From Eledone cirrhosa (Eukaryota), in contig OZ024749.1 in NCBI GenBank assembly GCA_964016885.1, positions 52,824,001 to 52,888,000 of the forward strand: a DNA stretch of 64,000 nt. Direction: 5' to 3'. The position numbers were made by a program, and so were the translations under genes. The first letter of the stretch is position 1. Each line of letters starts with the position of its first letter. This document shows positions 18,501 to 47,000 of this stretch, in pieces. A model generated the notes under the pieces. That model was not told the DNA's origin. It was given only the letters and a program-made list of their open reading frames with translations, and did not search any database.

Positions 18501-21492
18501 AGAACTGGAATGAACCCTTCTGAAACAGTCCCTGGTTCTGTGCTAGGTACAAAACTGTTTTAAAGTGTTTATATTTATCTAAAAACCTTCCATCATAATT
18601 TTATGTAAGAACTTTTAAGTTATGTTCCAAATACCAACTTGATGAAGAAATTATTTATTCTTCTAATTTTTTCAAAATTCTTGTTTATTAAACCCTTTAG
18701 CATATAAACCGGCTGTATCTGGCCAGAATTCTTTCACCTCTTTCTGTTCAAACCAGCCATAACTGGCCACTCATACTAACATTAAGGTATTGTTCTCAAA
18801 ATAAATAATACCAAAATCTCATAGATTTGATATTATGTGAGGTAAAGCCTTTACTATGAAAATACAATAGTAAATATAGAGTAATGTAAATACTAAAGGG
18901 TTAAAAAAATATTTTCATTATTGTATACCAAATATTCATTACACACTGTCATGATGTTAAACTCTTTTGTGACTTGACTTACCAAGAACATCAACAACTT
19001 GATCAACCAGGCCCATCTTTTTAGCTTTATCAGCTCGAATAGTTTTGCCCGTCAGCATCATATCCAAAGAATTTGGGACAGAAATCTAAATAATAAAAAT
19101 AATAATAATAGTACAATCCCAGCAGACGACAATATATCTTCCAAGGAAATAGAGAAACTCTCCAATTATAAAGATCTAGAGATAGAAATAACTTGAATGT
19201 GGAAAATGAAAACAGACTCAATACCTATAATAATAGGTGCTCTGGGAATGATAAAAAACACAGACAAATAAATAGCCAAAACCCTAGGACTTGCAAAAGA
19301 TAGCACTACTAGGCATTGCACACACATTATATAGAGTACCACAGGACTTACAAATATATCATCTCATAAACATTATCTTCGTTTAACGTCCATCTTCCAC
19401 GCTAGCATGGGTTAGACGGGAGTTGTCCCACTTGAGGCAAGGTTGGTCGGGTAGCCGTGTCTCACTCATATAGGACTATCTGGCAGGTTTTCTACGGCTG
19501 GATGCCCTCCCTAACACCAACCACATTTACAGTGTGGAACTGGGAACTTTTTACTGTGTTACCTACTAGAGATGAAGGTCATCCCAATTGTCATAGGAAC
19601 ACTAGCTACTATCTCAAAGAGTTTTCAAGGATGGTTAAAGAACATTAGTCCAGGCCTCCTTTTTTTGGAACACTTCAAAAGGCATGCTTGCTGGGAACAG
19701 CAAGAACCCTCCGATACGCCCTGAATATCTGAGGCTGCAGGTAGTGGCTTGATGTTCATTTGAACAAACTTTCCAGTTCAATAACATCAATGACTGAGAC
19801 TCCATGAAAATAATGGTTTCTTATATAGGCACAAGGCCAGCAATTTTCTGGGAGGGGAAAGTCGATTAAATCGACCCCAGTGCGTGACTGGTACTTTATT
19901 TTATCGACCCTGTAAGGATGAGAGGCAAAGTTAACCTCGGCGGGATTTGAACTCAGATCATAAAGGGTCGTGACTCTATGCTGCAAAGCTCTGCGTCCGA
20001 CCCTCTACCGATACTGCCAATCCACCGCCCTACTCCATGAAAATAATAATAATAATGAGAAAGTAGATGTGTACAATCCATCTTAAATATGAGATGGGCT
20101 GGCTGTGGGAAATGAAAAAGGTGAAGATAGTTGTTAGGGTGTTGGGGACAGTATCAAACGATATTGAGAGGAACATGAAGAAAATAGGAATAGAATGTCC
20201 AGTAGGGGCTATTGCGAAATATTTGCCTCTTTGGCACAGCCTGAGATGGGAGAGGAGAATGTCAATTAAATCGACCTCTACCAGTTGCTAAGCAATAATG
20301 AAAAGTTTATAGCTACCAGCCGAGGTAAACGCTGGGTTCCACCACCTCCAGGTAATAATCCAAGCATCACTTCTGGAAGTCCCAGACCAGTTTTTTTATC
20401 CTTAACCGCAATTCTATGGTGACAGGCAAGAGCCACCTGAAATTACAGTTAAAATATCAGAGAAAAACATAGAAATATAATACAAACACAGAAAAAAAAA
20501 AAAAACCACACACATATAAAATACACATACACATGTACACTTCTTTGCCCTCTTATTCCTGGAGTGTCGTAGGGGGACAGAGTCCTCAAACACTCCTTCC
20601 AGCGGGTCCTGTCAGAAGCAACGGTCTCCAATTGATCTGGCTGGGTCCCCAAGTATAACCAGTTAAGGCTCTTGGATGTTATCCAACCATCTTGATGCCT
20701 GTGTGCGATCACATAAAATAAAACACACACACAAAATGGTGGTAGCAATGATTTATCATTTTAAACCCCCACACCCCAATTTTAAGAAATATATATGAGT
20801 CTCTTACTTCAAGTCCACCACCTAAACATAATCCCATGATGGCTGCTACTACTGGTTTCTTGCTTGTCTCTATTCTTTCCAGCAGTGCGTGCGCTGTTTT
20901 ACTGAGACTCGTAGTTTCTTCAGCTGATTCACATGCCTTCAACATACTGTGGAAGATCAAAATAGAGATTGAATTAACCCTTTTCATAACAAACTCCCCA
21001 AAACAATTCAGCACTTATGACATAAAAACAAATTATTTTAAAAGATTTTAAAATCTTTACATAATTTTTTTTAAAGAAATTTTTTTATTTAGTAATATTT
21101 TAAATATCAGCTTTCTAATAAGAGTTAGTTATTTTTTTATAAAATTCCCCCAAACATTTAAATATTTTGAAAATTAATTTGAAAGCCAAACAGTGTATTT
21201 CATGAGAAATATGGCAACAAACGTGTATATTAATTTGATACACATAGAAGGGGTGCCCAAATATACTTACACACACACACACATTATATATACATAAACA
21301 GGACCACCCAGTCCCACACTGTAAATGTGGTTGGTGTTAGGAAGGGCATCCAGCTGTAAAAACCCCGGCCAAATTTACAGTCCCGTCAGGGCAAGGTACA
21401 GCTTGGCCAATCCTGGCCAGACTTGTCTCTCAATGTGGATGACCCGTCTGACCCATGCAAGCATAGAAAAATGGACGTTAAACGATAATGAT

Positions 21493-21524
<32 letters not shown>

Positions 21525-24500
21525 GAGAGAGGAATTTAAGATTTAACATGAAAATGACTTACCCAATATCGGCCCCTGCCAAGAAACAGCCAGGTTTTCC
21601 AGACATCAGAACTACACTTTTAATTTGTTCATTGTTCCATATTTCTTCCATGACGCCTTCTATCTCAATTTGTAGAGGTTTGGACAAAGTGTTGACCTAC
21701 AATATATGACACAATGTTAGCCTACAGTGTATGTCAGTGATACTCAACAGTGTAGTGTTAGCCTACAATATATGACAGTGATACCCAACATTGTAGTGTT
21801 AGCCTAGTGTATGGCAGTGTTAGCCTACATTGTATGGCAGTGTTAGCCTTCACTATATGGTAGTGTTAGTCTAGTGTATGGCAGTGTTAACCTACAGTGT
21901 ATGGCAGTGTTAGCCTACAGTGTATGGCAGTGTTAGCCTACATTGTATGGCAGTGTTAGCCTACACTATATGGTAGTGTTAGTCTAGTGTATGGCAGTGT
22001 TAACCTACAGTGTATGGCAGTGTTAGCCTACAGTGTATGGCAGTGTTATATAAGAGACAAGAAAGACAATCAAGCAGTAACTTAACAAAAGAGTGTGTAC
22101 TATTTTGTTGATTCTTTTGATACAAACTCACTGAAAACCTCCCCTGTTTCTATGAAGGAACCACTCATTTTAAAGGGTTCCTATATAAATTAAAATCTTC
22201 CATCATCATTTAGCGTCAACTTTACCTGTTATTGCTAGCAAGGATTGAAAAGGTGTTCACAGACCAAGTTTCAGTACTAAAGTGAGAGCTACTGACCTCC
22301 CAGATAAAACAGAGGTTTGCATTTCACATGTGTCTCCCGTTCTACCAAGTGTATCATGGCACCAACACTGGAGAGGTTCTCATGTTTTTGACACAACTGA
22401 GGGATCCTTCCAATAATTGTTTCTACTTTAGGCACAAGGCCAGCAATTTTGGAGAGGAGGGGGGAAAGTCGATTAAATCAACTCCAGTACATTACTGGTA
22501 CTTTATTTTATCGACCCCCGTAAGGATGAAAGGCAAAGCTAACCTTGGGGGGATTTGAACTCAGAACATAAAGGGCTGTAACTATTCCACGAAGCATGTT
22601 GTCTGACGCTCTACCGATTCTCTGATTTAATCACAAGGCCAGGAATTTGGGGAAAAGAGATCATATTGACCCCCAGTATTTGACTGGTACTTTATTTTAT
22701 TGATCACCCCACCCCTGAAAATGAAAGGCAAAATTGACCTGGGCAAAATATGAACTTAGAATATATAGGGCCGTAATTCTATGCCACAAAGCATGTTGTC
22801 CAACGCTCTACTGATTACTGCCAATCCACTGTTCTGCTATAATATAATAACATATTTTAATGACCTTTGACCCTGGACTGTCCATCTTGACCACTGCAAC
22901 GTCATTTTTTACTTCATAATTTACATGGACTCGAGCTAAAAAAAAATAAAAATAAGATTTTACTGAACAGAAATATTTATGAAAGTGGTTGTAGTTTTCT
23001 CTATCTTCTATAACAGCCTTTTGAAGCAAATTTCAGTAGTGATGGGCAGGTTATGGTTTGTCTGCCTCTTTCACATCCTCAAAACAATGTCAGTCTATTT
23101 CACACCCACAACTGGAACCAGTCTGCTTCACACCCACATCTGGAACCAGTCTGCTTCACACCCACAACTGGAACCAGTCTGCTTCACACCCACAACTGGA
23201 GCCAGTCTGTTTCACACCCACATCTGGAACCAGTCTGCTTCACACCCACATCTGGAGCCAGTCTGTTTCACACCCACATCTGGAACCAGTCTGCTTCACA
23301 CCCACATCTGGAGCCAGTCTGTTTCACACCCACATCTGGAACCAGTCTGTTTCACACCCACATCTGGAGCCAGTCTATTTCATATCCACCCACATCTGGA
23401 ACCAGTCTATTTCATATCCACCCACATCTGGAACCAGTCTATTTCATATCCACCCACATCTGGAACCAGTATACTTCACAGCCACATCTGGAGCCAGTCT
23501 GCTTCACACTCATCATGTTAATAATTGTTTCTACTTTTGGCACAAGGCCAGCAATTACCCAGTACATTACTGGTACTTTATTTTATCGACCCTGTAAGGA
23601 TGAAAGGCAAAGTTAACCTCGGCGGGATTTGAACATAAAGGGCCGTAACTCTTTGCTGTAAAGCATGGCGTCCAACCCTCTACCAATACTACCAATCCAG
23701 TTAATAATATTCACTTACCTGCCATGGCTGAATTTATGGAAAAATATCTCCAAGAAAAGATTCCTGAAATATAGAAGACATGTATAATTATTTAGTTGTA
23801 ACAATGAACTCTTCAGGGTCAAAGGCCATCGAACACCAACTATGGGTTAACCCTTTAGAATTTAAACTGGCCAGAATTATCTGCCCTCTTTCTGTTCAAA
23901 CTGGCTGTAATCAGCCGCTCATACTGATGTTAAGGTATTGTTCTCAAAATAAATATCAAAATCTCATAGCTTTGATATTATGTGAGATAATAATAAGGTA
24001 AAGCCTTTACTGTGAACATATAATAGATATAGAGTAATGTAAATGTTATGCGAGATATTATGAGGTAAAGCCTTTACTGTGAAAATATAATAGTAGATAT
24101 AGAGTAATGTAAATGCTAGAAGGTTAAATAGCCTCACCAACCCACAACTGGACAAGCATGGTAAGAATAGCTACATCCCTGAAGACATGCACCAAAAACA
24201 GTGCAAGTCAACTAGGGAGAGGTTCCTCCAACAGGAGTGGGATTAGATAACCCCTGTGTGTGTGTGAGAGCTCACACCTATGCAGGTTTAGCTGGCCTCC
24301 TCCAAGGTATATCTCGTTGGAGGTGTCTTGGGTGATTTAATGATAGGGAGGCACCCCAGTCCCTATCATCTCATTTCTACAGCTGAGTAAACTGGAGCAA
24401 CGTGAAATAAAGTGTCTTGCTCAAGGAAAGAACACATCACCCGGTCCGAGAATTGAACTCACAACCTTTCGATTGCAAGTCCAATGCTCTAACCACTAAG

Positions 24501-28907: not shown

Positions 28908-29464
28908 CATATAGAGAGAGAGAAATAGATATATAAATATATCCTGTAGACTTAATTTCTATATAAAATAAAGATGCTTATACTCTAACAACGTATTGAG
29001 TACCTTCTTTAATTGTGGTCATCTCCCGATCCCCTTCGGGAGTACAGAGTTGAACCCCAGTCGATAAAATAAAGTACCAGTAATGTACTGGGTAGTTGCT
29101 GGCCTTGTGCCTAAAGTAGAAACAATTATGTATATATATGTTCCTACTTACTTATATATATCTGTGTGTGTGTGTGTGTGTGTGGTATAGTTTACGGTAC
29201 GCACATTACAATAATCGATACACGTTAATAAAATGTGTAGAGGCTGTTTTATGTGTGTAAATAATGTGATTATAACCCAACATACAATGGCGTCCTGTTG
29301 ATCTGCAAAGAGTTAACTAACATAGCTAGGGTTTCACATCCATTACAGAATTGTTGATATCGTCCTCGTCTGCTCATATTACCAACGTGAAATTATAGTC
29401 AAGATTCGATGAAGCAGAAAGAAAAAAAAATTAAACACGCAAGGATACTTTCTTAATAGAATAA

Positions 29465-32132: not shown

Positions 32133-32644
32133 ATGGCCATGTCTCTCTCAGCTACTAGAAATATAACAATTCTTAACGGAATAAAATCACTTGGTAAGTT
32201 CTTCTTATATTTATCCTAATATATATATAATATTATTTCAAGACATTTTTTTAATGTTTTATTTCAACCACCCAAGATTGTGCCAAATATATTTTTACTG
32301 TAATACCTACCCAGATATTTGGTTATATAATATTTATTTACCCGTTTCCATTTTTTTAAAAAATATTATATATATATTATATTTTATATTCTACGTTCTC
32401 CCCTTCTTTTATTTACGTAAAACCTTTTAATATTAATATGAGACAGTTTTTTTTTAACATATGTAAACAATTCTTGTCTGTTGACTGTCTCCCACCCGGG
32501 GGTAGCTGTGACCTGGTAGAATAAAATATATTTGACATTTGTATTCTTCTCTATCAATATTTCTGTAAATAAACGTATTATATTCCTTGACACAGGTGAT
32601 ACTATTAATTTAGACTTCGTCAGGACCAATACAGGCCGAAACCT

Positions 32645-33996: not shown

Positions 33997-34142
33997 TTTT
34001 AATATAGATGAGATTCTACAGGACTAGAACTGTTTCATTCTTTAGAAATCATCAGGAATCTCAGAGTATAAAAACTTTTATACTCTGCAATGTATTGAGT
34101 ACCTTACTTACTGTGGTTACCTCCGATTCAACCCGGAACAAC

Positions 34143-34187
<45 letters not shown>

Positions 34188-34469
34188 TGAAGTATTTCCG
34201 TAGGAAAGGTAAAGGAAAAGAGTGCTCTATGTAGGCTACAGAGCTTTTTAGAAATATTTATTTCTTCTGATGAATGAAGACAGACATAAGTATCTGTCTT
34301 CAAGAAACCACTGGTAAATGAAATAATTATCTTATGTTGTTTATTACATAACTATATATATATAATATTCATATTACGTCCATTTTTTCCACGCTAGCAT
34401 GGGTTAGTCGAGTTGTCCTATTGTGGGCAATGCTAGGTCAGCTGACCATTCATGCTCATGCAGAACTCT

Positions 34470-34519
<50 letters not shown>

Positions 34520-35206
34520 ATTTTGACCACAATGTCATTTGTGTTTGTAATTTCAAGCTATAAGGATCAAACCGCCAGCCTCAAAAACGAAAGAGAGGCG
34601 GTTTTCCTCTGTACGGTGGCTATGATGAAAGAAGTTATATGGTGGACGAGGTTGAGAGGACTGAGGACAGATGCCTTTCTCTCCGGACAACAATTGATTC
34701 CCTTCTTTAAGTATCACTTTAGAAGGAGAATCAGAGTGGAGAGAGAGACACTGCACCCCAGTAAATTTACTGAAAGGTGGGTGAATGAAGCGAAAATGGC
34801 CCGAGTGATTGAGCCTTCTCTGTTTATAAGCTTGTAGGTTGAAGAAAGGAGCACTTGCACAACACGCTCCTGGAGTTGAGGGTTGTTCTATCAACGGGGT
34901 ATTAAACAACCCATTTGTGGTGCCTCCCCCCTATTGGGGATTTCGATTGTTGTAATTGTTTGTTTTTATATTTTTTACACGACTGTATGTAAAATCCCCG
35001 GCATGTCTTTGTATTGTCCCCTTTTCTTGTGCGCCCTTGTGGCTAATAAAGAAATATATCTATATTATCAGCGTATTTAAATAAATAGGAAACATTTATT
35101 TAAAAAAATAATAAATAAAACAAAACAGCAGTTATTGAAATATAAAACTCCAAGCTTGTGTGACCGTGCACATTCACACGATAGGTTTCAGATATATATT
35201 TTTAAT

Positions 35207-35265
<59 letters not shown>

Positions 35266-36765
35266 GCAGGAGCTATTATATAAATATTATATCAACGTAG
35301 TAGTGGAAGAAACCTCAAAGAGAGCTGGACAGCAAGTCTTCAGAGAAGAACACCCCCCTCATAAACGAGTGTTTTGGCCCAGGAGAGCTGGACAGCTGAA
35401 GGTCTTCAGAGAAGAAACCTCTCTCTCTCTCTCTCTCTCATTACACCCGATTCTTTTCATTCCTAGTTTTTACTCTCAACCTATCGCTTCTTCATTTATG
35501 TAAATTGTCACAAGACAACCTTCAGATCATGCCCGCCTTACTTCATTCCAGCCACCACAAATCTTCTGCATACAAAAGACCCTTAAAAAGGGGTCAAGGG
35601 GCTTTTTACCTTTGGGTAAACTTAAAAAAAGAAGATTTAAAAAAAAATTGTATTGACAATACTGAAATAAAAATTATTCTAAATTGTCAAATCTCTACAA
35701 CACTTAGTCAGAAGGGTGCCACCCCTTAAACTCTACAATGCTTACAGTCAGAAGGGTGCCACCCCTTAAACTCTACAACACTTACAGGTAGAAGGGTGCC
35801 ACCCCTTAACCCTTTAGCATTTACATTACTCTATATTTACTATTATATTTTCAAGGTAAACACTTTATTTCACATAATTACCTCACATAATATTGAATCT
35901 ATGAGATTTTGATATTATTTATTTTGAGAACAATACCTTAACATCTATATGAGGGGCCGGTTTCAGCCAGTTTGAATAGAAAGAGGTCAGAGAATTCTGG
36001 CCATACCCGACCAGTTTAAATGCTAAAGGGTTAATCTCCACAACAGTTGCAGGCAGAAGGGTGTCACTCCTTAAACTTTTCTTTCCATAGGAAGTGTGAC
36101 ATCATATTTAGTCACGCCAGCTCTTGAGCTCATTGCACTCTCCTCAGAGTTCATCCTTTGACATAACATTGGCATTGTGTTGGAAATTATTATAAAGGAA
36201 ATTCCATTGAAACTTTGAGAGAGAGCATTGTTCTGGGAGAGTGTATCATCATCATCATCATCATCATCAACGTTTAACGTCCGTGTTCCACGCTTGCATG
36301 GGTTTGGACGGGGGTAGTCCCACTTGAGGCAAGAGTGATTGTCTTGCTCGCATAGGACTGTCTGGCAGGTTTTCTACAGTTGGATGCCCTTCCTAACACC
36401 AACCACATTTACAGTGTGGGTCTGGGAGGTTTTTACCGTGTTGCCTACACGGCCACATTACAGCGTGGACTGTGTGTTTTTTTGTCGTGACACCTACACG
36501 ATCTCATTTGTTTCGGCCCGGATGGCGCGGCACCAACATAACTTTACATAGGACGGGGTGGTGTGGATGGGGTGGGGGTGGTGGTGGTGGGACGGGGTGT
36601 ATTTTGTTAGAGATGCCTACTGGCAAGGCGGGTCTTCTCTGTTACTGAGTACCGCCATACTCTTGTTTATAGGCTCTGATGATTTATAGGGTATGGATGA
36701 AACACTGTTAGCTAATAAAACAATGTATTTCTAGGCACTCTTTGGTTATTCCTAAAATTAGAGTG

Positions 36766-36802
<37 letters not shown>

Positions 36803-38048
36803 ATACTTTGGGAGGGTCATGTTGCCAATAAGAAACACGCACCAGTTGCTTTCACTTCAATTTATTATATATTTATAAATTTATAAATTTACAAATCTAC
36901 AAACTTATAAATTTCTGGTTGGTTTCTTAGTTTCTTATTGGCAACATGACCCTCCCAAAGTATAACAATATCGGTTTCAACACACGATTTCAGATAAAGA
37001 ATCTTGCTAAACAAATTCAGAAACGAAATATATATATATAATTTTAGGAATAACCAAAGAGTGCCTAGAAATACATTGTTTTATTAGCTAACAGTGTTTC
37101 ATCCATACCCTATAAATCATCAGAGCCTATAAACAAGAGTATATCAATAGTTGCATGCTCCATCAAGCTGCGTCACCAGAACAAAGTTGAAGGACCAGCA
37201 GGGGGATCCCGAGGCCAGCGCTATATAGAAAAAGACACAATACATGACGCACATAATGTCATAAAATGTCATAAAAAGTTACATCAAAAATTTATCACAT
37301 AAATGGTGCAATAGATAAAGAGGTTGGGAGAGGGTAGCAAGGAATGAGCGAAGGTGTTACTCAGCATGATCAAAAACAATTAAAAAAGCCCCCCCCCCCC
37401 CCCAAAAAAAAACAAAGCAAAGCATAGATACATCAAAGCACAAGCAGTGCAAATACAGGATGTACGGGCAGATTAAGAGAGCTTGCAAGCATGAGTGTGT
37501 GAGAAGAATAGTTGGTTAGTGGTGGTGCAGCTTTACATGTAGGATTGTCTCTAGGAAGGATGGTGTACTCCAGTTATATCGCCTTGTAACAGGTCGATTC
37601 TCCGTATCATATCAGCACCCTACGAACCACATCCATTGGTTCCAGTTCCGAGCATTAGGCGAGATAACACTGTTTCCAAAACATATACCGAGGGGATTTA
37701 TCCGCATAGGTGGTCTGCGATAAACACCTAAAATCTAAAATAAAATAAAGTACGATGAGTTAAAGAAAGGTAGGGTATATGTACAGCCGGCACACCAGTG
37801 AGGTAATTGAGAATACGACAGGTCCGCAATAACTGCCATCCCCCAAAGTCCTCGCGTTCGGTCACTCAACCCAACGTCCCAAGTGAAATTCACTGTATGG
37901 CCGAGTGTTGGCATCGAACCAAAGTGTCATGCCGTATACAATTATACCACAGTAAATGTAAATCATGATGGCTATACTGTCACATAGACAGAAAGTGTAT
38001 CATCATCATCATCATTTTACGTCCGCTTTTCCCTGCTTGCAAGGATGG

Positions 38049-38093
<45 letters not shown>

Positions 38094-41000
38094 CATAGAA
38101 TCATTAGATAAAATATGTACAGTATTTCTTCTCCCAATCACCATAAATCAACCACACAAAAAATCATTTAAATGAGGCTATAACTTTAAAATATACCATT
38201 TTATTCAAAGTATGTATTTGTCATTAAAAGAAAACTTTCTTTTGCAAACTCTCTATATGAGGGGTGGGGAACAGGGAGTGCCATAAACTTGTGTTTAGGG
38301 AGGGGTGAGGAACAGGGAGCACCATGATCTTGTGTTTAGGGGGTCAAAAGGACTTAATCCATCCTTGCCCATGTTTGGAAGTGAGAAAGAATAAAACTAT
38401 TTGGAGATGTGATACTAGTTTGTAAAGGATGTAAGTTGTGGGAGGAACTGGTTTAGATATTAAAGGATGTTAGATGAAAGGAAATGGGATAATTGTTGTG
38501 GATAAATGACAGTGTTGTCATTAACAGGAAGATGTTGTGGATAAATGACAGTGTTGTCATTAACAGGAAGATGTTGTGGATAAATGACAGTGTTGTCATT
38601 AACAGGAAGATGTTGTGGATAAATGACAGTGTTGTCATTAACAGGAAGATGTTGTGGATAAATGACAGTGTTGTCATTAACAGGAAGATGTTGTGGATAA
38701 ATGACAGTGTTGTCATTAACAGGAAGATGTTGTGGATAAATGACAGTGTTGTCATTAACAGGAAGATGTTGTGGATAAATGACAGTGTTGTCATTAACAG
38801 GAAGATGTTGTGGATAAATGACAGTGTTGTCATTAACAGGAAGATGTTGTGGATAAATGACAGTGTTGTCATTAACAGGAAGATGTTGTGGATAAATGAC
38901 AGTGTTGTCATTAACAGGAAGATGTTGTGGATAAATGACAGTGTTGTCATTAACAGGAAGATGTTGTGGATAAATGACAGTGTTGTCATTAACAGGAAGA
39001 TGTTGTGGATAAATGACAGTGTTGTCATTAACAGGAAGATGTTGTGGATAAATGACAGTGTTGTCATTAACAGGAAGATGTTGTGGATAAATGACAGTGT
39101 TGTCATTAACAGGAAGATGTTGTGGATAAATGACAGTGTTGTCATTAACAGGAAGATGTTGTGGATAAATGACAGTGTTGTCATTAACAGGAAGATGTTG
39201 TGGATAAATGACAGTGTTGTCATTAACAGGAAGATGTTGTGGATAAATGACAGTGTTGTCATTAACAGGAAGTTTCATTCCAGAGTCTTTATTGTTGACG
39301 TCCAATTGGAAACATTCCAGTAATGTTTCACACCTTGTGTCATATGTCACATGTCTTGTTACACACCTTGTGTTATATGTCACATGTCTTGTGTCACATA
39401 CCTCGTATCATGTCACATGTCTTGTGTTATACACCTTGTGTCATATGTCACATCACGTCTTGTGTTATACACCTTGTGTCATATGTCACATATCACGTCT
39501 TGTTATACACCTTGTCATATCACGTCTTGTGTTATACACCTAGTGTCATATCACGTCTTGTGTTATACACCTAGTGTCATATCACGTCTTGTGTTATACA
39601 CCTAGTGTCATATCATGTCTTATGTTATACACCTAGTGTCATATCACGTCTTGTGTTATGCACCTTGTGTGATATCACGTCTTGTTATACACCTTGTGTC
39701 ATATCACGTCTTGTTATACACCTTGTGTCATATCACGTCTTGTGTTATACACCTTGTGTCATATCACGTCTTGTTATACACCTTGTGTCATATCACGTCT
39801 TGTGTTATACACCTTGTGTCATATCACGTCTTGTGTTATACACCTTGTGTCATATCACGTCTTGTTATACACCTTGTGTCATATCACGTCTTGTGTTATA
39901 CACCTTGTGTCATATCACGTCTTGTTATACACCTTGTGTTATATCACGTCTTGTGTTATACACCTAGTGTCATATCACGTCTTGTTATACACCTTGTGTC
40001 ATATCACGTCTTGTGTTATACACCTAGTGTCATATCACGTCTTGTGTTATACACCTAGTGTCATATCACGTCTTGTCTTATACACCTTGTGTCATATCAC
40101 GTCTTGTGTTATACACCTTGTCATATCACGTCTTATGTTATACACCTAGTGTCATATCACGTCTTGTGTTATACACCTTGTGTCATATGTCACATATCAC
40201 ATCTTGTGTTATACACCTTGTCATATCACGTCTTGTGTTATACACCTTGTCATATCACGTCTTGTGTTACACACCTTGTCACATCTTGTTACACACCTTG
40301 TCGTATGTCACATATCACATGACTTGTTACACACCTTATTTCATGTCACATGTCTTGTTACAGACTTTGTGTCATGTCAGTCTTGTTACACACCTCGTGT
40401 CATATGTCAGTCTTGTGTTACACACCTCATGTCATATGTCAGTCTTGTGTTACACACCTCATGTCATATGTCAGTCTTGTTACACACCTTGTGTCATATG
40501 TCACAGTCTCGTGCTACACACCTCGTGTCATGTCACATGTCTTGTGTTACACACTTCGTGTCATATGAGGGAAATATATAATGAAAATTATTGTGTGCAG
40601 TGCTCAGGTGCACTACAAGTCATCAAAGGTGCATGTATAGTACATAGAATAATGTACTAATGTCAGGAAAATGATCAGTGTATGAGTCATGATATACACA
40701 CAGATACATGTGTGTGTGTCTGTATGGAGGAGGGATATCAGGTGTAGTGTTGGCAAATTTCAGGAAACATGGAGGTTTTAAAGGATGCAGTGTCTCGACA
40801 GCTAACAACTGATGCAGGGAGTTTGTTCCATGGAGGTTTTAAAGGATGCAGTGTCCCGACAGCTGACAACTGATGCAGGGAGATTGTTCCATGGAGGTTT
40901 TAAAGGATGCACTGTCCCGACAGCTGACAACTGATGCAGGTAGTTTGTTCCATGGAGGTTTTAAAGGATGCAGTGTCCCGACAGCTGACAGCTGATGCAG

Positions 41001-44000
41001 GTAGTTTGTTCCATGGAGGTTTTAAAGGATGCAGTGTCCTGACAACTGATGCAGGGAGATTGTTCCATGGAGGTTTTAAAGGATGCACTGTCCCGACAGC
41101 TGACAACTGATGCAGGTAGTTTGTTCCATGGAGGTTTTAAAGGATGCACTGTCCCGACAGCTGACAGCTGATGCAGGTAGTTTGTTCCATGGAGGTTTTA
41201 AAGGATGCACTGTCCCGACAGGTGACAACTGATGCAGGTAGTTTGTTCCATGGAGGTTTTAAAGGATGCACTGTCCCGACAGGTGACAACTGATGCAGGT
41301 AGTTTGTTCCATGGAGGTTTTAAAGGATGCACTGTCCCGACAGGTGACAACTGATGCAGGGAGTTTGTTCCATGCTTCAGCAACTCTAAACGGGGAAAAA
41401 TGTTTCCGAAAGTCATGGGAGCTGTGCTGATTTCTGACTTTGTAGGCATGTCCATGGGTGTTAGACACATGGAATTCGAAAAGGTGCTCAGTTGTTGGTG
41501 TTAAGATGGTTAATGATATTGTGGGTGTTTACCAAGTCAGTTGCCAGACGTCGGAGCTTTAGAAGAAATAAAATCAATAAAACAAACAAAATAAAATAAA
41601 ACTATAGAAAGTTAATAAAATAAATTTGAAACACTACCCCCTTTCCCCTCCCCCGTGATATCAACACCAGTTGTAATGGTGGTAGTTGTGGTGGTATACA
41701 GTAACTGCTCACTACGTGGTAGTGGTGTCTATATAACTAACTGCTCACTACATAGTGGTGGTAGTAGTGGTACTGGTGGTGGTGGTGGTGGTGGTAGTAG
41801 TGGTGGTAGTGGCGGTAGTGGTGGTGGTGGTAGTAGTGGTGGTAGTAGTGGTGGTGACAGTAGTGGTGGTGGTATAACAGTAACTGCTCACTACGTGATA
41901 GTGGTGTCTATATAACAGTAACTACTCACTACATAGTGGTGGTACTGGTGGTAGTATTAGTGGTACTGGTGGTGGTAGTAGTGGTGATGGTGGTGGTGGT
42001 GGTAGTAGTGGTGGTGGTATAACTGTTCACTACACTACGTGGTGGTAGTAGTATGTCTCTATAACAGTAACTGCACTACATAGTGTTGGAGGTAGTGGTG
42101 GTGGTGATCACTACGTGCTGTTTTCTGATATTTAATGTCAACGTGTCAAAATATAGGACACTAAAAATATTTCTCTCTCATTCATTGACGTAATTGGAAC
42201 TTAGTTTGTTTTACATATTTTGGTTGTTAAGTTTCTATCATGTGACATATTTTACATTTGATTGTCATTCATACCAGTAATTACTGTATCACAGGCTACT
42301 TTGGTTTTACTGGAGGTTTTAGGTGACCCAGCAGTGACAGATACCTATTTAACCTTCTAGTCAGCCCTTCGTCCCTCGTTCCAACAGAGGAGTCTTGGAT
42401 GTGACATCTGGAAAGAGAGAGAGGAGGTGCACCAGTATACCAGTAATTACTGTGCCACTGAGTGCCTTGCTTTTACTAGAGGTTTTCAGTAACCCTTTCG
42501 ATCCTCCCGGCCTCGTTCCTGCAGAACACCCCAGATGTGACAGCTTGAAAGAGAGTGAGAGGGTTGCAACACTGCTGTACCATCATGTAGTCACAGATAA
42601 AAAGCACCCAGTACTCACTGTAAACATGGTTGGCGTTAGGAAGGGCACCCAGCTGTAGAGACCAAGCCAAAATTAGCCCTGTGTGAGCAAGACATGGCCT
42701 ATCTCATAACAGGACAACTTATGCTAGCATGGAAAAATGGATCTTAAATGGTGATGATATATATATATATATCATCATCACCATTTAACGTCCATCTTCC
42801 ATGCTAATATGGAGTAGACAGTATATATATATTTATAAGGATCTGTATATATATATATATATATACACAGATCCTTATGAGCAGTACGTGGTCTCTTGAT
42901 TTGTCTCATAACAGGACAACTTTTCTAACTCATAAGAGAGGCCCCAGTGTGAGCAAGACATGGTCACTTGACCTGACATGTTTCAAAACATTGACAACCC
43001 ATCTAACCCATACAAGCAGGAGAAATAGACATTAAACAATAATTTTGATGAATCCTGCTCTTTTACAGCACACAGTTAGTGATCCACTAATTTGGAAAGT
43101 AGTGAGGGAAAAAAAAAATGTTAATCTTAAAATACTAATTTAATATTTTGTTTGTTTCTCGGTAGGTGTTCGCTGTTTTAGTGTATCTTCTACTCACCAG
43201 AATGTAGCTCCAAGTAAGTTCTTATAATTCATTTTATGTGTTATGTTTTCTGTAACACTCTCTCCTAATACCAAACTTCTCCAGCAGGAAAACAACTATA
43301 TAATTCATTACCTCCACTGCTATATTTCAGGTAGCTCACTTACCTGGTATTATATATGTAGATGACACCTGAATATGTTTAACTTAACCGACTTACCTGC
43401 TATTGTATATGCGACTATATATACCAGGATTACTGGATATATAGACAATCATACAAACTGGGAAATTCCTGATTGCATAAGAGAAACCCTATAGTTTGTT
43501 GTTTACTGATTTGTGGAAGTGATTAAAGATAAAAAATGATATTTTAATCATTTATTTCTAGGATATAATTACATAAAATATTCAACATGTATGTAGAAAT
43601 GACAATCAGGATTATATATATGAGTAACTTCGGAGAAATAACTATTTACAGGGACAAACGTAGAATTAGAACCCAGGACCTTATGTTTGTAGCAACATGA
43701 CTGAGATAGGAAATACACTGTGTGTGTAAAAATTATTTATATATATATATATATAAGTTTATCCCGGGTGTTCAATCGGGGGTGACCACAGTAAGTAAGG
43801 TACTCAATACATAGCAGAGTATAAATATTTAATATAGCAATGGCTTCTACAGGACTACTACTGTTTCATTCGGGAAAATCATCAGGAAGCCGATATGTAT
43901 ATAATCACACATGATGTAATATTAAAGTTGATTGTAATCTTTTCTTTTGTAGGTAAAAAAACTCTTTCAAAACCAGGTGTTCGGAATGTTGTCTTAGTAG

Positions 44001-47000
44001 AAGGTGTCCGAATTCCTTTCCTGGTCTCCGGAACCACGTACGTCAATCTGATGCCTCACGATTTAGCTCGGAATGCATTGCTGTAAGTAACCGAGATGAA
44101 ACAAAAGATAAAGTGATTTCTCTGAGAAACGAGTATATTTAAATATATATAAAAATGAGAAAACTCATCGCTAGGGCAACCGTTAAAACAGCTAAATGCT
44201 GTGAAAGACAGCGATGGGCAAAGATGCCTGAGAGACCAGCGGCCAGTGGTCAACAGAGAGACCAGCGGCCAGTGGTCAACAGAGAGACCAGCGGCCAGTG
44301 GTCAACAGAGAGAGACAATCGACAAGCTGGGTGACAGGCAGATGAAATATAGAAAAGATTGGCAGAGGAGAATGACAAAGAGAAGTGTGTTGGCACACTA
44401 GATTTGATTTGTGAAGGTGCATGACTTAGTGGTTGGAGAATTAGATTCACAAACGTGAGATTGTGAGTTTGATTCCTGGATTTGATGTGTTATGTCCTTG
44501 AGCAAGACAATTTATTTCACATTGCTCTTTCTGCCAGGAGTTGCAACTGGTAGATAGTTATCAGCAATGGAAAGATTTGACAATTTCCACCTTACTCGGT
44601 ATGTGAACAAAGTCAGGGAATTTGTCGATAGATTCAGTCGATTGATTCAGTCAATAGATTCAGTCGATTGATCAGAATTTGACATTTCTACAAGTGGAAT
44701 CTATTATTTTCCTTAATCAAAGTTTTAGATATTGAACCTTTGTTGACACAAATTGCCACCAAATCTGATCCTGGTTCTATGATATAAAACTGTTTTAAAG
44801 TGTTTATATTTATCTACAACACATCCATCATAGTTTTATGCAAGAACCTTTGTTAAGTTATGTTCCAGATAGCAACTAAATTGATAGAAAGTAATTTATA
44901 TTATTAAATCCTTCCAAATTCGTAATTACATATTTGACTTGTTTTTATTTTATTTTATTTTCAGAGGTTTAGTTAAAAGAACAAACCTATCAAGAGGTAA
45001 ATTACTTTCCATATCTTTAGAAATGGCAGTGTATTGTGGTGGTATGGTGGTGTGGAAGTGGTGGTATGGTGGTATGGCAGTGTGGTGGTGTGGTGGGGTG
45101 GCAGTGTGGTGGTATGGTAGTGTGGTAGTGTAGTGGTATGGCAGTGTGGTGGTATGGTGGTATGGAAGTGTAGTGGTATGGCAGTGTGGTGGTATGGTAG
45201 TGTGGTGGTGGTGTGGTAGTGTGGTGGTGGTGGTTTAGCAGTGTGGTGGTGTGGTATGGTAGTGTGGTAGTGTGGTGGTATGGCAGTGTGGTAGTGTGGT
45301 GGTGTGGCAGTGTGGGGTTGTGGTAGTGTGGTGGTATGGTAGTGTGGTGGTGGTGTGGTAGTGTGGTGGTGGTGGTTTAGCAGTGTGGTGGTGTGGTATG
45401 GTAGTGTGGTAGTGTGGTGGTATGGCAGTGTGGTAGTGTGGTGGTGTGGCAGTGTGGGGTTGTGGTAGTGTGGTGGTGTGGTGGTATGGCAGTGTGGCAG
45501 TGTCGTGGTATGGTAGTGTGGTGGTGTGGTAGTGTGGTGGTGTGGTGGTATGGCAGTGTGGCAGTGTGGTGGTATGGTAGTGTGGTGGTATGGTAGTGTG
45601 GTGGTATGGCAGTGTGGTAGTGTGGTGGTGTGACAGTGTGGTGGTGTGGTGGTATGGTAGTGTGGTGGTATGGTAGTGTGGTGGTGTGGCAGTGTGGTGG
45701 TGGTATGGCAGTGTATTGTAGTTATTAACAATGGTAAAGTATTCCATAAGAAATATAGTAATTAATGGTTTAAAGAGTTTGTTATGAAAGTATTTCCTTT
45801 TCTGTTCTATTTGTCAGATTCTCTTGATTATATTATCATGGGGACTGTAATACAAGAAGTGAAAACTAGCAACATTGCCAGAGAAGTAAGTACCTTCCTT
45901 TCATTTACAAACACTTAACTCTTTTGATACCAAACCACCTAACACTGTCCCTTAGTTTTATGACACAACACTGTCCCTTAGTTTTATGACACAACACTGC
46001 CCCTTAGTTTTATGATACAACAGTCCCTTTAGTTTTATGACACAACACTGTCCCTTAGTTTTATGATACAACACTACTGTCCCCTTAGTTTTATGATACA
46101 CTGTCCCCTAGTTTTATGATACAACACTGTCCATTTTAAAATGTTTGTACAAGCTTTAGTAGATTATAAAGGGATGTACTAATAACTCAACTAAACCAGA
46201 TTTAATGTTTGCTACAGAGACAAGAAATAAACACCAGTCCCTCAGACTCTTCATCAACATCATTTAACGTCTATCTTCCACGTTAGCATGGGTTAGACAG
46301 GAATTGTCCCACTTGAGGCAAGATTGGTCAGGTGACCGTGTCTCGCTTGTATAGGACTATTTGGCAGGTTTTCTACAGCTGGATGCCCTTCCTAACAACA
46401 ACCACATTTACAGTGTTACCTACACGGCCACATTACAGCGTAGACTCTGTATTTTTTGTCATGACCTCATTAGTTTGGACTGGATGTTGTGGTACCAACA
46501 TAACTTTATAGAGAAAGGGTGGTGTTGGTGGGAGGATGGAGTAGGGGTAGTGGGTTGGGGTGTATATTTGGTTAAGAGGTGCCTACTGACTGTAGGTTTC
46601 GCTTTGTACATAGGCAAGGCGGGTCTTCTGTATTACTGTGTGGTGCCAAAGATCTCAGTCCAGTGACATTGTCTTGGAGGGGTGCAAGTGTGTAAGGTCA
46701 GAATTTATCAAATCACCCCAGGTTTTTCTGGGTCTACCTACTCCGTAACTTCCATCAGATTGTAAAACAATGTACTACTAACTCAGCCAAAACAAAGTAT
46801 GAGAGGAACCTGTCTAACCCAAGCAAGCATGGAAAATAGACATTAAACAGTGATGATGATGATGATGATGATGATAGGCAGTGTTTAGAATTATGCTAAC
46901 AAAATATTAACTGTTTTTCACTTGTATTTTTGAAGGCAAGTTTAGGAGCTGGTTTCTCAGATAAAATTCCTGCCCACACAGTCACTCAAGCCTGTATATC

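What the first reader, a model, noticed from the sequence alone, without database searches (positions are those of the whole stretch)
34009..43892. Two hammerhead ribozyme copies with compensatory stem I changes in HADHB introns
Seen: 34009-34063 and 43841-43892 (minus) both have the full CUGAUGA...GAAA-cag-N8-cug-UA core. Stem I differs in sequence but stays paired (gagauuc/gaaucuc versus ggcuuc/gaagcc). Both neighbour a shared ~70-nt segment (atactctgc.atgtattgagtaccttacttactgtgg..acc.ccgatt), downstream of the cut in one copy and inverted in the other. Known: type I hammerheads with short stem III occur in Penelope-like element pseudo-LTRs and in non-autonomous retrozymes, which show tandem or inverted ends. 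Inference: a self-cleaving, non-autonomous retroelement family, possibly uncatalogued in this lineage, with a shared unusual U-U pair at the base of stem II. Predicted cuts: 34017/34016 and 43848/43847.
Basis: partly seen in the sequence, partly recalled or inferred. Interest (0 to 1): 0.75.

Follow-up and report, generated by a model that had tools for sequence, protein, structure and literature searches.

The report
Penelope ribozyme marks capped transcript start
The two self-cutting-RNA motifs are real, but they are stubs of a very abundant, protein-coding Penelope-type jumping gene of an octopus-like animal, and the ends of its many copies suggest that the motif forms the very first bases of the element's capped RNA and that only uncut RNA gets copied into the genome.

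Summary
Both hammerheads are real (0 in 200 shuffles; stem I covaries). They are not a non-autonomous retrozyme family. They are 5'-leader fragments of two subfamilies of an autonomous Hydra-clade Penelope-like element: 21,381 exact core matches in this 3-Gb octopod genome, intact 713-aa RT/GIY-YIG frames, (TA)n targets, one long and one short arm. Both lie in HADHB introns but antisense to it. The 'unusual' U-U is common in published Hydra hammerheads. The more interesting result is in the copy ends: 35 of 100 listed copies stop in the 5' strand of stem I, with a hard edge at its first base, 30 nt behind a TATA box. Copies ending there mostly carry an extra G (80 of 94; 67 of 86 in the second subfamily, where fold-back would predict another base). 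Almost none stop at the cut. Inferred: the transcript starts, capped, at the ribozyme's first base and is reverse-transcribed uncut; cleavage would remove the cap. No RNA data, cleavage untested. The scan noted this capped-start reading before in other genomes; four paper searches did not show it in print.

The parts
34011..34061 (-). Copy 1 hammerhead (subfamily A, stem I AGAUUC/GAAUCU); 34061 is the predicted +1 of the element's transcript; cut 34017/34016
   Evidence: 96% identical to natural full-length copy L093
33995..34061 (-). Copy 1 short arm: +1 to 22 nt past the cut, ends in (TA)n
   Evidence: short end class at +15 to +22
34062..34070 (+). Junction filler templated from the tail; its first base is the extra C seen at the 5' end of most run-off copies (ambiguous here: cap copy or part of the filler)
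34071..34145 (+). Copy 1 long arm: 5'-truncated tail, +17 to +91 past the cut, ends in (TA)n
43842..43891 (-). Copy 2 hammerhead (subfamily B, stem I GGCUUC/GAAGCC); 1-nt deletion in stem/loop II and two changes in loop III; cut 43848/43847
43756..43893 (-). Copy 2 whole insertion: one long arm from 2 nt before the predicted +1 to the long tail end, in (TA)n; no extra G
32133..32193 (+). HADHB first coding exon (host gene)
   Evidence: tblastn with named octopod HADHB proteins; borders read
43166..43213 (+). HADHB second coding exon (host gene)
43953..44082 (+). HADHB third coding exon, 60 nt beyond copy 2 (host gene)

Best explanation
Both motifs are hammerhead-bearing leader fragments of an autonomous Hydra-clade Penelope-like retrotransposon, and were likely made when the element's reverse transcriptase started inside the 5' leader of a capped, uncut transcript and ran off its 5' end. 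Shown: family identity, intact coding copies, (TA)n targets, two fixed 3' ends (about +22 and +91 from the cut), a pile-up of 5' ends at the first base of stem I, a TATA box 30 nt before that base, an extra G at such ends. Inferred: RNA polymerase II starts at the first base of stem I; the GIY-YIG domain cuts both strands of a TA repeat; each 3' end primes cDNA at one of the two leader sites; cDNAs that reach the cap gain a C and are joined to each other or to the target, which gives one-armed stubs (copy 2) and head-to-head pairs (copy 1). Inferred role of the ribozyme: a slow or dimer-gated cut 45 nt into the message that would remove the cap (and end read-through RNA at the downstream repeat); it is not needed to make these copies. 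The two window copies lack the TATA box, lie antisense to HADHB, and are most likely inert.
For: Copy number: 21,381 exact core matches, reversed-pattern control 0; 3,733 for the GAAGCC subfamily. Autonomy: hammerhead and tail lead into the frame; 19 of 20 fetched full-length loci have an intact 713-aa frame, 97.4-99.7% identical in DNA; model pLDDT 92, best structural matches are telomerase RTs; all Hydra motifs present. 3' ends of 73 subfamily-A arms: 31 at +15 to +22, 4 at +28, 31 at +88 to +94, 3 run on, 4 elsewhere; 59 of 73 end in TA repeat; 14 of 17 inverted pairs are long+short, as in the two internal RT starts of PAc (PMC11167929). 5' ends, 100 listed rows read by eye: 46 run beyond the window shown, 35 stop at -39 to -45/46, 1 at -47 to -58, 18 at -2 to -38; script on the first 30 agrees. 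TATA to first base of stem I = 30 nt in 42 of 46 A and 29 of 30 GGCUU-type copies, whatever the length of the 5' strand. Base after +1 in cDNA sense: C in 80 of 94 true ends in A (by eye; 22 of 30 by script), C in 67 of 86 in B where fold-back predicts A (2 of 86). At ends one or two bases short of +1 the next base was C in 1 of 15. Ends at +1 to +8 of the cut: 2 of 100 (by eye). An extra G at full-length L1 5' junctions is read as the cap in PMC11702581 (one passage).
Against: No RNA run holds the stretch, so start site, cap and cleavage are read from DNA only. Many of the C-bearing junctions continue into a partner arm that begins with C, so part of the C count is ambiguous; the clean joins straight to TA repeat are few (C in 14 of 17 in A, 4 of 5 in B, by eye). 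The 100-row lists are the first matches along contig C1 (and C2), include both arms of some insertions and some duplicated loci, and were counted by eye. Copy 2 extends 2 nt past the predicted +1 and has no extra G; 14 of 100 B rows and 46 of 100 A rows run upstream, so longer templates also exist. No intact frame was tied to subfamily B (one search found only a 63% fragment near one B copy). No tree with published Hydra proteins was built.
Confidence: 0.8

Rival explanations
1. A non-autonomous retrozyme or SINE-like family of short hammerhead units moved in trans.
For: Most copies are short; no intact frame was tied to subfamily B in the loci fetched; retrozymes derived from Penelope ends are described (bioRxiv 10.64898/2026.07.22.740005, part 1 of 5 read).
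Against: The same hammerhead and tail are the 5' leader of intact coding copies; hammerhead-to-hammerhead distance is 4.7-4.8 kb in the 2 loci where both were seen; no short tandem monomers among the 60 loci; B copies have the same TATA-stem I layout.
Confidence: 0.07
2. The pile-up of 5' ends is made by the RNA or cDNA structure (RT stalling or cDNA fold-back at stem I) with untemplated C addition, not by a capped start.
For: In subfamily A the base that fold-back would add is also C; a few junctions do continue as fold-back (3 of 80 read CATC; 1); some RTs add C without a cap (own knowledge).
Against: In B fold-back predicts A or T but C is 67 of 86 and A 2 of 86; the second added base is A in only 29 of 80 in A; C is rare at neighbouring ends (1 of 15); the edge sits 30 nt behind a TATA box in both subfamilies; stalling would be expected on entering a helix, not after leaving it (inference).
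Confidence: 0.12
3. The ribozymes act on the host: they cut or regulate HADHB pre-mRNA.
For: Both sit in HADHB introns; copy 2 is 60 nt from exon 3.
Against: Both are antisense to HADHB; density (2 in 64 kb against about 1 per 140 kb for the strict pattern) needs no special cause; copy 2 has decayed loops; both lack the promoter.
Confidence: 0.03
4. The normal template is a ribozyme-cut, circularised unit-length RNA, and the stubs are aborted copies of it (model proposed in PMC4209133).
For: Partial-tandem full-length copies exist (L093, L109); 46 of 100 A copies run upstream of +1, which needs a circular or read-through template.
Against: A circle has no end at the first base of stem I and no cap, so it cannot give the sharp edge with an extra G; it could still account for the copies that run upstream.
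Confidence: 0.15

Closest known systems
Hydra clade of C-terminal EN+ Penelope-like elements, e.g. Hydra-1_Obim, Penelope-1_NV (Craig et al. 2021, PMC8557442; section 11, passages, supplement part 2 of 59 and search hits read)
   Same: Single frame of about 700 aa, RW(K/R), DKT, CxCX5C linker, C-terminal GIY-YIG without CCHH, CxxC and CxH around E and N, (TA)n targets, type I hammerhead with extra U on each side of stem II and ACAG/CUGU stem III with GUA cut.
   Different: Unit 4.7-4.8 kb (Hydra 'generally <3 kb') because of a ~1.9-kb TA/TG tract in the 3' UTR; loop III is 8 nt with a conserved CUAG palindrome (0-3 nt in the Hydra rows of File S2); stem II only 3 bp; tail about 70 nt, not 30-40; hammerhead and protein start differ from Hydra-1_Obim; promoter and start site of Hydra elements are not described in the passages read.
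PAc, Poseidon element of Anolis carolinensis (Frangieh et al. 2024, PMC11167929; parts 1-2 of 4 read)
   Same: Two internal RT start sites that define the tail, both target strands extended, AT-rich targets, uncut RNA as the main template.
   Different: Other clade; there the starts lie inside the frame and the hammerhead overlaps the start codon; here both ends lie in a 181-nt leader. No start site or cap signature is reported in the parts read.
Penelope of Drosophila virilis, promoter (Schostak et al. 2008, PMC2377424; passages read)
   Same: Transcription starts within the pseudo-LTR.
   Different: Internal, TATA-less promoter and a 75-bp intron ending at helix I; here an upstream TATA box 30 nt before stem I, so run-off copies lose their promoter.
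Metazoan PLE hammerheads and non-LTR retrozymes (Cervera and de la Pena 2014, PMC4209133, parts 1-2 of 4; Li et al. 2026 preprint, part 1 of 5)
   Same: Type I fold in Penelope repeats, many dispersed single copies, palindromic loop III pointing to dimer cleavage.
   Different: Full 4-bp stem III, U-U instead of G10.1-C11.1; not tandem short monomers; coding partner present.

Membership tests
Type I hammerhead ribozyme | Core CUGANGA, GAAA, UH with three helices, helix I open-ended | tested here: met
   97.9% of cells paired in 26 distinct copies; two stem I pairs change on both sides (subfamily-level events, not independent)
Type I hammerhead ribozyme | Match to an Rfam hammerhead model | tested here: not met
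   no hammerhead family among 82 matches at E<=1 in the 64-kb scan; short stem II and U-U closing pair are likely causes
Type I hammerhead ribozyme | Self-cleavage at the GUA site | not testable with these tools
   no RNA run; active monomer fold about 0.1% of ensemble, stem-III swap dimer -12.8 against 2 x -1.4 kcal/mol
Hydra-clade PLE | Single frame, telomerase-like RT then C-terminal GIY-YIG | tested here: met
   713 aa; YRDD at 347; top fold matches TERT, E 4e-9; IVY..YIG at 585-604, Pfam GIY-YIG weak, E 0.025
Hydra-clade PLE | RWK motif | tested here: met
   RWR at 38; in the 80-row alignment RWK 56, RWR 21
Hydra-clade PLE | DKG changed to DKT | tested here: met
   DKT at 116
Hydra-clade PLE | CxCX5C linker; CxxC and CxH around conserved E and N; no CCHH | tested here: met
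   566-574, 666-669, 694-696; CxxC between the GIY and YIG halves in 0 of 80 rows
Hydra-clade PLE | Insertion into (TA)n; hammerhead in the pseudo-LTR | tested here: met
   59 of 73 arm ends in TA repeat
Hydra-clade PLE | Generally short (<3 kb); typical, not strict | tested here: not met
   unit 4,797 and 4,700 nt in L093 and L109, the excess being a microsatellite tract
Hydra-clade PLE | Placement in the Hydra branch of the RT tree | not tested
   published Hydra proteins were seen only in a paper supplement and were not brought into any computation
Non-LTR retrozyme | Non-coding, short head-to-tail tandem units each with a hammerhead | tested here: not met
   single or head-to-head stubs and coding full-length units
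Naiad PLE | N-terminal GIY-YIG, DKA, no canonical hammerhead | tested here: not met
   C-terminal EN, DKT, hammerhead present

The most novel reading that the evidence does not exclude
In this Penelope family the hammerhead is a built-in decapping switch: a TATA promoter is spaced so that the cap sits on the first base of stem I, cleavage (gated by dimer formation through the conserved CUAG loop or by the element's protein) removes the capped 45 nt, and only uncut RNA is copied; tens of thousands of genomic stubs are a fossil map of the start site, the cap and the two priming sites.
Probability: 0.35. Interest if true: 0.75.

Novelty: new member of a known kind. Interest (0 to 1): 0.48.

Why it matters
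What hammerheads do in Penelope-like elements is an open question (stated so in PMC8557442 and PMC4209133). Here the copy ends fix the likely transcript start at the ribozyme's first base and show that uncut RNA is the template in the germ line, in line with the one in vitro system. That turns the question into a narrow test: does the cut act as self-decapping or as 3'-end formation? The family is young, has many intact frames and two subfamilies with different stem I sequences, so it is a good model for the uncharacterised Hydra clade. The two intronic copies themselves are ordinary passengers.

Tried and rejected
Rfam scan at E<=1: no hammerhead hit, only microsatellite and tRNA-like noise. 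Window-wide repeat search was swamped by microsatellites. Run search: no RNA holder listed; three contig sets of one sample; laying them on copy 1 gave no spanning piece and no empty allele, so nothing on polymorphism. Profile search of the protein against solved-structure sequences: 0 hits; Pfam gave no RT hit. First count of tail-hairpin pairs used wrong columns and was redone (89.5% paired, one U-A/C-G change between subfamilies; weak). My first guess of Naiad was dropped after reading section 11 of PMC8557442. The 'twin near-identical hairpins' lead from earlier scan notes: hairpins fold 4 nt after the short end and 7 nt after the long end (-3.6 and -5.1 kcal/mol) but they are not near-identical here; inconclusive. 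Paper searches: (Penelope + promoter + transcription start + hammerhead + TATA) gave 0 papers, (hammerhead + octopus + Penelope) only PMC8557442; two searches showed no Penelope cap report in the listings. The library lacks most subscription papers, Repbase and Dfam were not available, and 57 of 59 parts of the Craig supplement were seen only through search hits; a description of this family could be there.
Full report
Observation. Both motifs are present on the minus strand with the stated cores and cut positions. A strict type I descriptor finds these two in the window and none in 200 of 200 dinucleotide shuffles. Rfam does not report them. In 26 distinct copies, 25 of them chosen because they still carry their upstream TATA box or are the window copies, 97.9% of helix cells pair and two stem I positions change on both sides (A-U/G-C, A-U/C-G) with G-U intermediates; these are subfamily-level changes, not many independent events. 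Loop II takes 20 or more forms while loop III is UUCUAGUC in 133 of 157 copies.

Host. The flanking gene is HADHB; one exon is 85% identical to the Octopus bimaculoides and 82% to the Argonauta protein, so the host is an octopod. The gene runs on the + strand; copy 1 is in the first and copy 2 in the second coding intron, both antisense.

What it is. The core pattern has 21,381 exact matches in the 3.0-Gb genome with 0 for the reversed control; the GAAGCC subfamily of copy 2 has 3,733. In 2 of the first 30 loci the hammerhead and tail run on into a reading frame. A protein search of the genome scored 88 of 49,618 candidates, many with an open frame of 758 codons; 19 of 20 loci fetched from that list hold an intact 713-aa frame, 97.4-99.7% identical in DNA, so subfamily A is young. 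The protein folds with pLDDT 92 and matches telomerase RTs best. It has RWR, DKT, YRDD, CxCX5C, a C-terminal GIY-YIG without CCHH, and CxxC/CxH, the features given for the Hydra clade in section 11 of PMC8557442. That paper's File S2 shows the extra U on both sides of stem II in most Hydra magnipapillata families and ACAG/CUGU stem III in several others, so the U-U is not unusual. A different family, Hydra-1_Obim, is listed for O. bimaculoides. Full units measured 4,797 and 4,700 nt, with a TA/TG tract of about 1.9 kb in the 3' UTR that shares landmarks between copies. No intact frame was tied to subfamily B.

3' ends. Of 73 subfamily-A arms, 31 end 15-22 nt and 31 end 88-94 nt past the cut; 59 end in TA repeat; 14 of 17 head-to-head pairs have one long and one short arm. 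This is the one-sided tail of Penelope-like elements, which PMC11167929 traces to two internal RT start sites used on both cut strands. Copy 1 is such a pair with a truncated long arm; copy 2 is a lone long arm.

5' ends. Among 100 listed copies anchored just behind the cut (read by eye; 30 checked by script), 46 run upstream, 35 stop in the 5' strand of stem I or at its edge, 1 stops in the next 12 nt and 18 stop earlier. The edge is the first base of stem I, which lies 30 nt after the start of TATAAATA in 42 of 46 A copies and 29 of 30 GGCUU-type copies, even where that strand is 6 or 7 nt long; in A it sits in CCAGATT, an initiator-like sequence (consensus recalled). Copies ending exactly there carry an extra G on the sense strand: 80 of 94 in A (6 of the 100 rows were point mutants of long copies and were dropped) and 67 of 86 in B (14 rows with the genomic base dropped). 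In A, cDNA fold-back at stem I would add the same base; in B it would add another, seen in 2 of 86. At ends one or two bases short of the edge the extra base was this one in 1 of 15. Several junctions are two arms each ending in the extra base with one letter between. An extra G at full-length L1 5' ends is attributed to the cap (PMC11702581, one passage). With an anchor further downstream, 2 of 100 copies end within +1 to +8 of the cut, 6 at -1 to -5 and 16 at +9 to +36 (by eye): no pile-up at the cut.

How it most likely works. Inferred: polymerase II starts at the first base of the hammerhead; the element's protein binds the leader, cuts (TA)n on both strands and primes cDNA at the two sites; on a fresh transcript the RT reaches the cap after 67 or 136 nt, adds a C, and the stub is joined. 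Copies that run upstream need a read-through or circular template, so both kinds of template exist. Since the stubs contain an intact hammerhead up to the cap, their templates were uncut, which agrees with the in vitro result for PAc. The monomer is predicted to fold poorly (about 0.1% active fold), while the CUAG loop allows a 12-bp stem-III swap; dimer-dependent cutting is the behaviour proposed for metazoan Penelope hammerheads (PMC4209133). A cut would drop the capped 45 nt. The lack of cut-ended copies does not show that the ribozyme is inactive: cut RNA may be degraded. D. virilis Penelope is reported to have an internal TATA-less promoter (PMC2377424), so this layout differs.

Limits. 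All of this is read from DNA; no RNA run was listed. The 100-row lists are not random samples, hold both arms of some insertions, and were counted by eye; part of the extra-base count is ambiguous because partner arms often begin with the same base. Copy 2 extends 2 nt past the edge without the extra G, and the extra base of copy 1 is also the first base of a templated filler. No tree with published Hydra proteins was made.

Prior notes. I reached the capped-start reading before looking (notes); the scan's unchecked notes hold the same reading for other Penelope families in other genomes and notes on other Hydra families in this genome; none matched this sequence. They are not counted as support.

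Verdict. The value lies in the end statistics, which make the role of Penelope hammerheads directly testable. Interest 0.48.

Noticed in passing
window 34195-34350: A second two-armed insertion of another family right beside copy 1, with a + strand hammerhead (core 34268, cut 34316/34317; long stem II, ACCA-C-UGGU stem III like Hydra-1_Obim). It is SENSE to HADHB pre-mRNA. 2,664 genome candidates, 40 scored.
   Followed up: partly
window 36657-36770 (+) and 37040-37180 (-): Two copies of a third hammerhead family (GUU cut, 1-nt loop III), both with the same 5-nt deletion in stem II; the + copy is sense to HADHB. 1,292 candidates, 40 scored; no frame found within 1.5 kb in 25 loci. Five hammerheads in the window against 6 hits in 100 shuffles.
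   Followed up: partly
L093:3800-5660, L109:3840-5570: The autonomous element carries a ~1.9-kb TA/TG microsatellite-like tract in its 3' UTR, with shared landmarks between copies; it would spread its own target repeat through the genome.
   Followed up: partly
window 43784-43807 (+): The antisense of the tail holds overlapping 5'-splice-site-like words (GTAAGT, GTAAGG) in the HADHB sense, about 150 nt before the exon 3 acceptor; possible cryptic donor, or an antisense feature conserved in the family.
   Followed up: no
window 28942-29026 (+): An old, 74% identical tail fragment of the same family without a hammerhead core.
   Followed up: partly
window 20709-23032 (-) and 32133 onward (+): Exons that look like HADHA (recalled resemblance, not tested) lie head to head with HADHB, as in vertebrates; an ATAD2-like gene (recalled) converges from 52-64 kb.
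   Followed up: no
L037:1829-4291: An intact 800-aa frame of another Hydra-type family, 36% identical to this one, next to a copy of this family.
   Followed up: partly
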